64,000 nucleotides of DNA from Trypanosoma brucei (Eukaryota), in NCBI GenBank assembly GCA_000002445.1, contig CH464491.1, positions 4,864,001 to 4,928,000 of the forward strand, in the 5' to 3' direction. Below, piece after piece: positions 30,001 to 30,728 of this stretch. Position numbers: made by a program. Within the stretch, counting starts at the first letter, position 1. Every line of letters starts with the position of its first letter.

Positions 30001-30728
30001 CAGGAAGCAATGAAGCGGTAGAAGCACTCAGTTATTTACTCAGAGCAAAGGAGGTGACAGTGAAAGAAAACAGCCCGAAAACACAAAAAAACAATTGCAA
30101 ACAAAGAACCAAAAGCGAATGTCAACCCGAAATTGGATGCAAATGGGAAGGAACTGATGAAAATGGAGAATGCATACCTAAAGATGGAGAAGGACAAACA
30201 AACACAGCAGGAACAGAAGAGAAAGATGCGAACAAAAATAGGTGCACCAAACACGGCACTAATAAGGAGGCTTGTAAAAATGACAAAACAGGAGACAAAC
30301 AACATTGTGCATGGAGAAAGGGCAAGGATAAAGAACCTGATCAAGAAAAAAAATGTGCCGAAATGGTAGATTTCTAGAAAACAAACAATTGGCCGTGATT
30401 GTTTCTTCTTTTGTGAGCTTGTTATAATTTTAGCATTATAAGTATTTCTGCTCAATTTTATGAAATTTATGAAAATTTACTTTTACGAGATGATTTGTTA
30501 AATTTTCTAAATTTGATATAATTTAACACTTTTGAAAAACCTTTTCCAAATCATAAGATTACGAAAACAAATAATGGTATGAACGTGGCTCATGAATATA
30601 AATTAGTAGTATGATAAAATATAAAAATTACTGTTGTTCAAATTTGTTTTATTTTGCTTAATTGTCTATTTTATGAATATTATTTAGGATAACAATAGCA
30701 GTAATAATGATAATTGTAATAATAAATG

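What the first reader, a model, noticed from the sequence alone, without database searches (positions are those of the whole stretch)
30340..30428. A single 2-nt insertion knocks out the GPI-anchor signal of an otherwise complete VSG
The 521-aa ORF 28812..30377 is intact from the signal peptide through the last C-terminal Cys but ends ..EKKCAEMVDF*. In the sequence caagaaaaaaaatgtgccgaaatggtagatttctagaaaacaaacaattggccgtgattgtttcttcttttgtgagcttgttataa, removing one tg restores ..EKKCRNGRFLENKQLAVIVSSFVSLL*, a canonical class-1 GPI signal.

A VSG without a GPI signal cannot be surface-anchored, so this would be a pseudogene whose N-terminal domain is still usable for segmental (mosaic) gene conversion. 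Alternatively it is an assembly error, since the frame break is next to an A8 run.
Basis: seen in the sequence. Interest (0 to 1): 0.6.

Follow-up and report, generated by a model that had tools for sequence, protein, structure and literature searches.

The report
VSG pseudogene with frameshifted GPI signal
This is an ordinary silent trypanosome coat-protein (VSG) pseudogene in the Trypanosoma brucei TREU927 reference genome, where a frameshift that paralogues attribute to loss of one base, not a 2-base insertion, disconnects the membrane-anchor signal.

Summary
The sequence facts hold. ORF 28812..30377 is an intact 521-aa VSG that stops at ..EKKCAEMVDF*, and a VSG-type GPI signal (..CRNGRFLENKQLAVIVSSFVSLL*, ending at 30427) lies in the -1 frame.

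The window is T. brucei brucei TREU927. Both neighbouring VSGs are exact GenBank proteins; this product is absent, as expected for an annotated pseudogene.

The proposed lesion, a TG insertion, is not the best reading:
- In 34 relatives, the linker between CAWRKGK and the last Cys is 10 or 11 residues.
- Every relative with this gene's xxEP[DE]x[ED]K linker continues with "EM-C" (one with "VM-C").
- An in-window paralogue reads GAAAAAGAAATGTGCCGAAAT. The target is the same string minus the G, which creates the A8 run.
- So TGTG is the Met and Cys codons, and the event is a 1-nt deletion. A family HMM favours that repair by 7-10 bits.

The restored signal is also not fully canonical. It has Arg where 31 of 36 relatives have Ser (omega+2), it lacks the terminal Phe, and the 3'UTR 16-mer has one mismatch.

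The N-domain is undamaged, so "3' donation" gene conversion could still use it. An assembly error could not be tested here.

This is a known kind of gene in a known genome, and interest is low.

The parts
27658..28268 (+). Upstream array of roughly 80-bp units ('70-bp repeats': a (TAA)n tract plus GAGAGTGTTGTGAGTGTG...), the usual 5' recombination boundary of a VSG cassette.
   Evidence: Tandem Repeats Finder reports period 81, 5.8 copies, 85% matches. That these repeats mark the 5' boundary is established VSG biology (own knowledge).
28812..30377 (+). VSG open reading frame as assembled. It is 521 aa: a hydrophobic N-terminal signal, an A-type N-terminal domain and a two-subdomain C-terminal domain, ending prematurely at ..EKKCAEMVDF*.
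   Evidence: Searches give the ORF. It is 59-65% identical over 87-98% of its length to VSG 1125.4810, 1125.138, 1125.4811 and 1125.1088. Pfam PF10659 scores 29.6 bits (cut-off 21.4); PF00913 scores 19.1 bits (cut-off 22.1).
30090..30356 (+). C-terminal domain made of two 4-Cys subdomains: NNCKQRTKSECQPEIGCKWEGTDENGEC, then RCTKHGTNKEACKNDKTGDKQHCAWRKGKDKEPDQEKKC.
   Evidence: phmmer against 1.84 billion representatives found 48 hits, essentially all VSG C-terminal domains. There is a weak PDB hit to VSG MITat 1.13, 6z8g. Types 1, 3 and 6 have two structured 4-Cys regions (PMC12226131).
30346..30353 (+). A8 run, the inferred site of the frameshift. The ancestral sequence GAA AAA GAA ATG appears to have lost its G, or first changed G to A and then slipped from A9 to A8.
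   Evidence: DNA alignment with the in-window paralogue at (-)48953, linker statistics and HMM scores of the alternative repairs.
30353..30427 (+). The -1 frame continuation M-C-R-N-G-R-F-L-E-N-K-Q-L-A-V-I-V-S-S-F-V-S-L-L-stop. It contains the last Cys, the presumed omega Asn (30362..30364) and the 20-aa GPI signal. TGTG (30354..30357) is part of the ATG and TGC codons.
   Evidence: Searches give the frame. Pfam coverage extends to 104 of 104 after repair. Relatives are listed. Taking Asn as omega is an inference: the dominant tail is 23 aa after N/D/S, and VSG omega residues are Asp, Ser or Asn (own knowledge).
30368..30370 (+). AGA (Arg) codon at the position two residues after the presumed omega Asn. 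Relatives have Ser there (AGT in the two in-window copies). This is a second candidate defect of the signal.
   Evidence: At that position the relatives have S in 31 of 36, G in 2, and C, N and V once each; none has R. That omega+2 must be a small residue is a general rule for GPI signals (own knowledge).
30375..30377 (+). Premature TAG stop in the shifted reading frame.
30514..30529 (+). VSG 3'UTR 16-mer variant TGATATAATTTAACAC, matching the conserved TGATATATTTTAACAC at 15 of 16 positions. It starts 86 nt after the restored stop.
   Evidence: which also found three exact copies behind other VSG 3' ends in the window. The consensus sequence and its role in high-level expression are in PMC9044945.
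30772..30871 (.). Gap of 100 Ns inside the (TAA)n tract of the next cassette's 70-bp repeats, starting 344 nt after the restored stop. It shows the local assembly is scaffolded rather than finished.

Best explanation
The locus is a silent, array-type VSG gene cassette in a subtelomere of T. brucei brucei TREU927. It has 70-bp repeats upstream, then signal peptide, A-type N-terminal domain, a two-subdomain C-terminal domain, a GPI signal and a 3'UTR with a 16-mer.

A net -1 frameshift sits in the A-rich linker just before the last cysteine. The ancestral sequence ...CAA GAA AAA GAA ATG TGC CGA AAT GGT... (..QEKEMCRNG..) lost one nucleotide. Most simply this was the G of the second GAA, which fused A5 and A3 into the present A8 run. 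Translation now reads ..EKKCAEMVDF and stops 50 nt before the true end, so the product lacks the omega site and the hydrophobic GPI signal.

A protein without that signal cannot be transferred to a GPI anchor, so the gene cannot make a coat protein by itself (inference from established GPI and VSG biology).

The tail carries further departures from its family: Arg at omega+2, no terminal Phe, and a 16-mer with one mismatch. The 3' end is therefore probably drifting without constraint.

The undamaged N-terminal domain remains a usable donor. A gene conversion that starts in the 70-bp repeats and ends anywhere upstream of about 30346 would keep the expression-site gene's own C-terminus, GPI signal and 3'UTR. 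This '3' donation' would yield a functional chimeric VSG.

Shown here: the frame break, the out-of-frame signal, the paralogue evidence for a 1-nt loss and the atypical residues. Inferred: loss of anchoring, rescue by 3' donation, and that the lesion is real rather than a consensus error.
For: - Source: the neighbouring ORFs 32376..33887 and 58666..60231 are exact matches to T. b. brucei TREU927 proteins XP_829775 and XP_829777, on a 5.26-Mb record. The 521-aa product is absent from the same collection.
- Frame break and tail. Any repair raises PF10659 from 33.8 bits (1-78 of 104) to 71-72 bits (1-104 of 104).
- Linker length: 10 aa in 29 of 34 relatives and 11 aa in 5, never 9.
- Linker pattern: all 13 relatives with xxEP[DE]x[ED]K in this register continue with E/V-M-C. 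Five of the six nearest neighbours of subdomain 2 are of this M-class.
- Closest relative: P0023 reads ..HCAWRKGKDKEPDQEKEMCRNGSF.. and shares the downstream 3' frames, 88% over 43 aa at 30370..30498.
- DNA level: the paralogue at (-)48953 is CACGAAAAAGAAATGTGCCGAAAT and ours is CAAGAAAAA-AAATGTGCCGAAAT.
- Family HMM: insert G 110.9 bits, insert A 108.3, delete TG 100.9.
- Extra departures in the tail and 3'UTR.
- Cassette anatomy.
- Literature: only 4.5% of TREU927 array VSGs are annotated intact (PMC1868767). 433 of 2872 (15%) are complete in Lister 427 (PMC8445201). Pseudogene donors and 3' donation, including boundaries confined to the GPI-signal region, are in PMC3708902.
Against: - No read-level data or second TREU927 assembly could be consulted, so a consensus error is not excluded. 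A 100-N gap starts 344 nt downstream of the restored stop.
- No true orthologue was found. The best hits are 59-65% identical, so the ancestral sequence is inferred from paralogues whose 3' modules recombine freely.
- One relative with EPD in the linker (P0013, DDEPDKETEK-C) has K rather than M before the Cys.
- The general Pfam model does not separate the repairs (71.0, 71.4 and 72.0 bits).
- Whether Arg at omega+2 really blocks GPI addition in T. brucei was not tested.
- No expressed VSG carrying this N-domain was found, so its use as a donor is a possibility, not an observation.
Confidence: 0.72

Rival explanations
1. One reading: the ancestral gene read ..EKKCRNG.., and a duplicated TG (TG to TGTG at 30354..30357) caused a +2 frameshift.
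For: - The edit does restore the frame.
- K-C-R-N is the commoner junction overall: 20 of 34 relatives have K before the Cys.
- The two intact in-window copies read GA(A/G)AAATGCCGAAAT.
- Dinucleotide slippage is a plausible mutation (own knowledge).
Against: - It yields a 9-residue linker, which none of 34 relatives has, so it needs a second event: loss of one codon.
- All K-class relatives have a different linker (EDDKxTEK or ETDEPEKEK), whereas ours is of the EPDxEK type that continues with EM-C.
- The exact string ATGTGCCGAAAT occurs in the in-window M-class paralogue.
- The family HMM is 7-10 bits worse for this repair.
Confidence: 0.07
2. Assembly or consensus error: the real TREU927 genome has one more base here (A9 or AAAAAGAAA). 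The gene would then be in frame, at most an 'atypical' VSG and not a pseudogene.
For: - The break lies in an A8 homopolymer.
- The region is scaffolded, with a 100-N gap starting 344 nt after the restored stop.
- A second VSG 6.5 kb upstream has its GPI signal shifted by +1 nt in an A7 run.
- Collapsed or uncorrected assemblies are known to create apparent frameshifts in T. brucei, shown for the PacBio Lister 427 assembly (PMC8445201).
Against: - The TREU927 reference was built from Sanger reads, which rarely miscount runs of 8 (own knowledge).
- The most likely ancestor has a G inside the run, so the change is loss of a G rather than a run-length miscount.
- The tail has other departures from the family, as expected for a decaying 3' end.
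- Real frameshifts are the norm in this gene family.
Confidence: 0.15
3. Recoding: the A8 run is used for -1 ribosomal frameshifting or transcriptional slippage, so that part of the product is the full GPI-anchored VSG (..EKKMCRNG..).
For: In the ORF frame the run reads GA|A AAA AAA|, an X_XXY_YYZ slippery heptamer in the correct register. A -1 shift enters exactly the GPI-signal frame.
Against: - The 87 nt downstream fold no better than shuffled sequence (-13.7 kcal/mol against a mean of -13.4, z = -0.12).
- The run is not conserved. Relatives have GAA AAA GAA ATG or ACA GAA AAA TGC (protein data).
- Array VSGs are not transcribed in place, and a coat needs near-stoichiometric anchoring (own knowledge).
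Confidence: 0.02

Closest known systems
Frameshift-class VSG pseudogenes of the T. brucei TREU927 silent archive (genome project annotation / VSGdb; PMC1868767)
   Same: Same genome and same cassette anatomy. It is a full-length VSG disrupted by a frameshift. [quoted passage not shown]
   Different: Nothing categorical. This gene is unusual only in that its damage is confined to the last 60 or so nucleotides of coding sequence.
P0023 (UniParc UPI0002C18FE3; 503-aa VSG; same UniParc id batch as Lister 427 VSG 405, so the strain is inferred)
   Same: It has the nearest 3' module..RCTKHGTK..C.N.KTGDK.HCAWRKGKDKEPDQEKEMCRNGSF.., and the same downstream sequence in all frames, including the ..VSLL* ending.
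   Different: The N-terminal domain is unrelated. Its linker is intact (EKEM-C), and it is frameshifted at a different place, after RNGSF, reading into SRKQTIGRDCFFF... It has Ser, not Arg, at omega+2.
In-window M-class VSG 3' end at about (-)48953..48700
   Same: It carries the DNA string GAAAAAGAAATGTGCCGAAAT (..EKEMCRN..), the same as the target apart from the single missing base.
   Different: It belongs to a different, fragmentary VSG. Its GPI signal is degenerate (CRNVICLLNKNKI*).
Intact in-window VSG tails of the same C-terminal domain subtype at (-)63520 and (-)54354
   Same..CAWRKGKDNEDDKDTEKCRNGSFLL(T/N)K(K/Q)FAL(T/S)VVS(A/S)AFV(A/G)L(L/I)F* shows what a complete tail of this subtype looks like. 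Both are followed by an exact 16-mer.
   Different: They have the K-class linker (TEK-C), 23 residues after Asn against our 20, Ser at omega+2 and a terminal Phe.
'3' donation' segmental gene conversion (Hall, Wang & Barry 2013, PMC3708902)
   Same: It is the documented route by which VSGs with damaged C-terminal regions are expressed: the previously expressed C-terminal domain and GPI signal are retained. It was seen in 57% of expressed sequences, and in 25% of those the boundary lay only within the GPI-signal region.
   Different: It has not been observed for this gene. No expressed VSG carrying this N-domain was found.
EATRO 1125 VSGs 1125.4810, 1125.138, 1125.4811 and 1125.1088
   Same: Their N-terminal domain and first C-terminal subdomain belong to the same family. 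They are 59-65% identical overall and nearly identical from about residue 330 to 453.
   Different: They come from a different strain. Where the second C-terminal subdomain and tail are present, they differ (1125.138 ends ..CKDSSFLVNEKLDMSMAAFVSIVT), which shows that 3' modules have been exchanged.

Membership tests
T. brucei variant surface glycoprotein (VSG) gene | N-terminal domain homologous to known VSG N-domains | tested here: met
   It is 59-65% identical over 87-98% of its length to four named VSGs, with E-values of 1e-176 to 1e-178, and it aligns without damaging indels. Pfam PF00913 alone is sub-threshold at 19.1 bits against a 22.1 cut-off.
T. brucei variant surface glycoprotein (VSG) gene | C-terminal domain with 4 or 8 conserved cysteines | tested here: met
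   PF10659 scores 29.6 bits, above the 21.4 cut-off. The eight Cys fall into two 4-Cys blocks. The requirement for four or eight cysteines is stated in PMC1868767.
T. brucei variant surface glycoprotein (VSG) gene | In-frame C-terminal GPI-anchor signal | tested here: not met
   The ORF stops at 30377. The signal lies in the -1 frame, 30353..30427. The locus is therefore a VSG pseudogene and not a functional VSG.
T. brucei variant surface glycoprotein (VSG) gene | Cassette context: 70-bp repeats upstream | tested here: met
   Array at 27658..28268 with period 81 and 5.8 copies.
T. brucei variant surface glycoprotein (VSG) gene | Conserved 16-mer TGATATATTTTAACAC in the 3'UTR | tested here: inconclusive
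   The copy at 30514..30529 matches 15 of 16. The consensus is in PMC9044945. The effect of the T-to-A change is unknown.
VSG pseudogene (frameshift / stop-codon class of the genome annotation) | Recognisable full-length VSG disrupted by a frameshift or in-frame stop | tested here: met
   The definition is in PMC1868767.
VSG pseudogene (frameshift / stop-codon class of the genome annotation) | Lesion present in the organism's DNA, not only in the assembly | not testable with these tools
   No reads or alternative TREU927 assembly were reachable. The contig look-ups returned nothing.
VSG pseudogene (frameshift / stop-codon class of the genome annotation) | Annotated without a protein product in the reference | tested here: inconclusive
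   The exact 521-aa product is absent from NCBI and UniRef, while both neighbouring VSGs are present. This fits a pseudogene annotation, but the annotation record itself was not seen.
Canonical Asn/Asp/Ser-omega VSG GPI signal of two-subdomain C-terminal domains | Small residue two positions after omega | tested here: not met
   Ours has Arg. Relatives have S in 31 of 36, G in 2, and C, N and V once each; none has R.
Canonical Asn/Asp/Ser-omega VSG GPI signal of two-subdomain C-terminal domains | Hydrophobic tail of family-typical length ending ..LLF | tested here: inconclusive
   Mean hydropathy of the last 12 residues is 2.56, within the family range of 0.2-2.9. The tail is 22 aa from the Arg that follows the last Cys, against 23-25 in all but one relative. 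It ends LL*, whereas 22 of 24 relatives end in F. P0023 shares the LL* ending.
Programmed -1 ribosomal frameshift site | X_XXY_YYZ slippery heptamer in the zero frame | tested here: met
   GA|A AAA AAA| at 30347..30353.
Programmed -1 ribosomal frameshift site | Stable downstream stimulatory structure | tested here: not met
   Minimum free energy is -13.7 kcal/mol against a shuffle mean of -13.4, z = -0.12.
Programmed -1 ribosomal frameshift site | Conservation of the slippery site among relatives | tested here: not met
   Relatives encode EKEM-C or TEK-C with an interrupted A-run.

The most novel reading that the evidence does not exclude
The A8 run created by the lesion is a slippery A_AAA_AAA heptamer in exactly the register where a -1 slip enters the GPI-signal frame. 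The slip could be ribosomal, or RNA polymerase adding an A. If the gene were copied whole into an expression site, a fraction of the product would then be full-length, GPI-anchorable VSG (..EKKMCRNG..). That would make it a 'leaky' pseudogene.
Probability: 0.02. Interest if true: 0.45.

Novelty: already known. Interest (0 to 1): 0.08.

Why it matters
It matters little beyond annotation. VSG pseudogenes make up most of the T. brucei archive, and their rescue by 3' donation or mosaic formation is documented. This locus is in the reference genome.

There are two small lessons:
- A frameshift diagnosed from one sequence alone can be mis-assigned. Paralogue comparison turns the 'TG insertion' into a 1-nt deletion, so TGTG is simply the Met and Cys codons.
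- Repairing the frame does not by itself make the gene functional, because the signal has an atypical omega+2 Arg and the 16-mer has a mismatch.

For anyone cataloguing usable N-domains, this gene counts as an intact A-type N-domain donor that needs a foreign 3' end.

Tried and rejected
- Word-indexed homologue search with the 111-aa repaired C-terminal domain found nothing. The exhaustive representative search replaced it.
- Exact-product contig look-ups for the target, for P0023 and for the neighbouring VSG all returned nothing. No independent assemblies, reads or homologue DNA could be obtained. DNA-level comparison therefore relied on paralogues inside the window.
- Marcello & Barry 2007 (PMC1950903) and Cross et al. 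2014 (PMID 24992042) are not held. Statements about them rest on my own knowledge or on citing papers.
- A GPI review and a C-terminal domain paper did not give omega-site rules for VSGs. Taking Asn as omega is therefore an inference from tail lengths and prior knowledge.
- Programmed frameshifting was considered because the run is a slippery heptamer. It was rejected for lack of downstream structure and lack of conservation.
- The PDB sequence search gave only a weak VSG MITat 1.13 hit and added nothing.
- I considered whether the clustering of 3'-end-only lesions in this window (3 of 5 long VSG ORFs) is meaningful. I rejected it as ascertainment bias: only genes whose damage lies at the extreme 3' end still appear as long ORFs.
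- Structure prediction and fold search were not used, since they do not bear on the question.

Full report
**1. What is there**

ORF 28812..30377 (+) is an uninterrupted 521-codon reading frame ending ..KEPDQEKKCAEMVDF-TAG. The A8 run is 30346..30353 and TGTG is 30354..30357.

The -1 frame reads ..KKMCRNGRFLENKQLAVIVSSFVSLL-TAA, ending at 30427.

The out-of-frame tail is a real VSG tail and not a chance ORF. Any frame repair raises the Pfam Trypan_glycop_C score from 33.8 bits (profile 1-78 of 104) to 71-72 bits (profile 1-104 of 104).

**2. Source and context**

The neighbouring ORFs 32376..33887 (+) and 58666..60231 (-) are exact matches to T. brucei brucei TREU927 proteins XP_829775/EAN80663 and XP_829777/EAN80665, on a 5,261,801-bp record. 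That size fits chromosome 11, which is my inference.

The 521-aa product is not in the same collection. This is what one expects if the reference annotates the gene as a pseudogene.

The window is a typical subtelomeric VSG array:
- Several VSG genes and fragments lie on both strands.
- An ingi-like retrotransposon is present.
- There are two 100-N gaps.
- The target has a 70-bp-repeat array upstream at 27658..28268, and the next cassette's repeats lie downstream at 30908..31377.
- A 16-mer-like element, TGATATAATTTAACAC, starts 86 nt after the restored stop. The consensus TGATATATTTTAACAC is given in PMC9044945.

**3. Is the rest of the gene intact?**

Yes. The protein is 59-65% identical to EATRO 1125 VSGs 1125.4810, 1125.138, 1125.4811 and 1125.1088. 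It aligns with them from the signal peptide through the first C-terminal subdomain without damaging indels, and the N-domain cysteines are conserved. The C-terminal domain has two 4-Cys blocks, the architecture of types 1, 3 and 6 (PMC12226131).

**4. What the lesion is**

An exhaustive phmmer search with the C-terminal domain (30090..30356) found 48 relatives. Their tails were read.

Linker length:
- In the 34 sequences where it can be scored, the linker between CAWRKGK and the last Cys is 10 residues in 29 and 11 residues in 5 (the ETDEPEK(E/K)K class).
- It is never 9 residues.

Linker classes:
- One class is xxEDDKxTEK-C (K-class).
- The other is xxEP[DE]x[ED]K(E/V)M-C (M-class).
- Ours begins DKEPDQEK. 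All 13 relatives with that pattern in that register continue with EM-C, or VM-C in one case.
- Five of the six nearest neighbours of our second subdomain are M-class.
- The nearest, P0023, reads ..HCAWRKGKDKEPDQEKEMCRNGSF...

How the two repairs compare:
- Restoring one base gives DKEPDQEK(E/K)M-C, a 10-residue linker with Met.

At the DNA level an M-class paralogue inside the window, at (-)48953, reads CAC GAA AAA GAA ATG TGC CGA AAT. The target reads CAA GAA AAA -AA ATG TGC CGA AAT. Loss of the single G fuses A5 and A3 into the observed A8. The two K-class copies in the window read ACA GA(A/G) AAA TGC CGA AAT.

An HMM built from 24 complete tails scores the repairs as follows:

| Version | Bits |
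|---|---|
| Insert G | 110.9 |
| Insert A | 108.3 |
| Delete TG | 100.9 |
| Unrepaired | 62.8 |

The 'TGTG' is therefore the junction of the Met and Cys codons, and the lesion is a 1-nt deletion. An equivalent route is a G-to-A change followed by slippage from A9 to A8.

**5. Is it the only defect?**

Probably not. In 36 relatives the four residues after the last Cys are R (35), N/S/D (28/4/4), G/S (26/8) and S (31).

The dominant tail has 23 residues after the N/D/S. This matches the classical 23-residue VSG signal and places omega at Asn, which is an inference.

Ours differs in several ways:
- It has Arg at omega+2 (AGA at 30368..30370). No relative has a large or charged residue there.
- The tail is 22 residues from the Arg that follows the last Cys, against 23-25 in all but one relative (P0048 has 21).
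- It ends LL*, where 22 of 24 relatives end in F. P0023 shares the LL* ending, so that feature predates the frameshift.
- The 16-mer has one mismatch.

**6. How it works**

As assembled, the product lacks the omega site and the hydrophobic signal. It cannot be GPI-anchored, so it cannot form a coat (established biology, inferred here).

The gene remains a donor of an intact A-type N-domain. Hall et al. 2013 (PMC3708902) showed the following:
- 43 of 103 N-domain donors were pseudogenes.
- 57% of expressed sequences had undergone '3' donation', that is, retention of the previously expressed C-terminal domain.
- In 25% of those the boundary lay only in the GPI-signal region.

For this gene, a conversion that ends anywhere 5' of about 30346 would be enough. 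Mosaic formation within the N-domain is not required.

The gene itself looks like the product of such exchanges. Its N-domain and first subdomain belong to the 1125.138 family. Its second subdomain, tail and 3'UTR match P0023, whose N-domain is unrelated.

**7. Rivals**

- Assembly error. This could not be tested, because no reads or other assemblies were reachable.
  - For it: the break lies in a homopolymer, a scaffold gap starts 344 nt after the restored stop, and a neighbouring VSG has a +1 shift in an A7 run.
  - Against it: the reference was built with Sanger chemistry (own knowledge), the likely ancestor has a G inside the run, the tail carries other departures, and real frameshifts are frequent in this family.
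  - My estimate is about 15%.
- TG insertion: about 7%, for the reasons in section 4.
- Programmed slippage. The run is an A_AAA_AAA heptamer in the right register. However, the downstream RNA folds no better than shuffled sequence (z = -0.12) and the run is not conserved. My estimate is about 2%.

**8. Novelty and score**

This is a known class of object in the reference genome of a model parasite. Only 4.5% of TREU927 array VSGs and 15% of Lister 427 VSGs are intact. Nothing here would surprise a specialist.

The useful outcome is a corrected diagnosis: the lesion is a 1-nt deletion, there are further atypical features in the 3' end, and 3' donation is the rescue route.

Interest is 0.08.

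Noticed in passing
window 22346..23992 (+), A7 run at 23897..23903: A second full-length VSG ORF has its GPI signal knocked out of frame at a homopolymer. It reads ..CQDSSFIVNKK, then IGSEYDCCFCEF.. in frame, while LALSMTAAFVSLLTF* continues in the +1 frame. One A too many in AACAAAAAAATTGG explains it.
   Followed up: partly
window 35257..36720 (+), stop at 36718..36720: A third full-length VSG (PF00913 260 bits) ends ..CKWEGAT-TGA, and KDFSFLINKKFTPSIAAVFVSLIDV.. 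continues in the same frame. A TGA nonsense codon sits where the last Cys codon (TGC/TGT) should be.
   Followed up: partly
window about 48953..48700 (-): A VSG 3' fragment with the M-class linker ..CAWRKGKEGEHEHEKEMCRN and a degenerate tail (VICLLNKNKI*). It served as the DNA-level comparator for the target lesion.
   Followed up: yes
database relatives P0005, P0019, P0023, P0042: Four of the 48 C-terminal domain relatives are themselves frameshifted within or just after the same A-rich linker and omega region (for example ..DKKTRRQRNYEVVVFF..KKCLKWEFSSKQTILPQRGF....RNGSFSRKQTIGRDCFFF..). This short zone seems to be hit by indels repeatedly in archive VSGs.
   Followed up: partly
window 41216..45076 (-), 15052..16176 (+), N gap 40083..40182: An ingi-like non-LTR retrotransposon lies among the VSGs, with endonuclease and reverse transcriptase (RVT_1 137 bits) followed by an RNase H / zinc-finger ORF. 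A degenerate endonuclease fragment is at 15052..16176. An assembly gap adjoins the first element.
   Followed up: partly
window 30772..30871: A 100-N scaffold gap lies inside the (TAA)n part of the 70-bp repeats between this VSG and the next. The array is not contiguously assembled here.
   Followed up: no
window 32376..33887 (+) and 58666..60231 (-): The two VSGs with GenBank protein records have slightly unusual tail endings, ..SNSFVIKKVPLWLAVFILG* and ..SSILVNKHLDLTMVAAFISFVGF*. The first has a near-identical T. equiperdum homologue (XP_067077902, 499 aa).
   Followed up: no
window 28812..30377 versus P0001-P0004 (alignment A1): Identity to the EATRO 1125 relatives is very uneven. It is about 50-60% over residues 1-330 but nearly 100% from about 330 to 453 (end of the N-domain plus the first C-terminal subdomain). 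This suggests recent homogenisation or exchange of the 3' half within this VSG subfamily.
   Followed up: no
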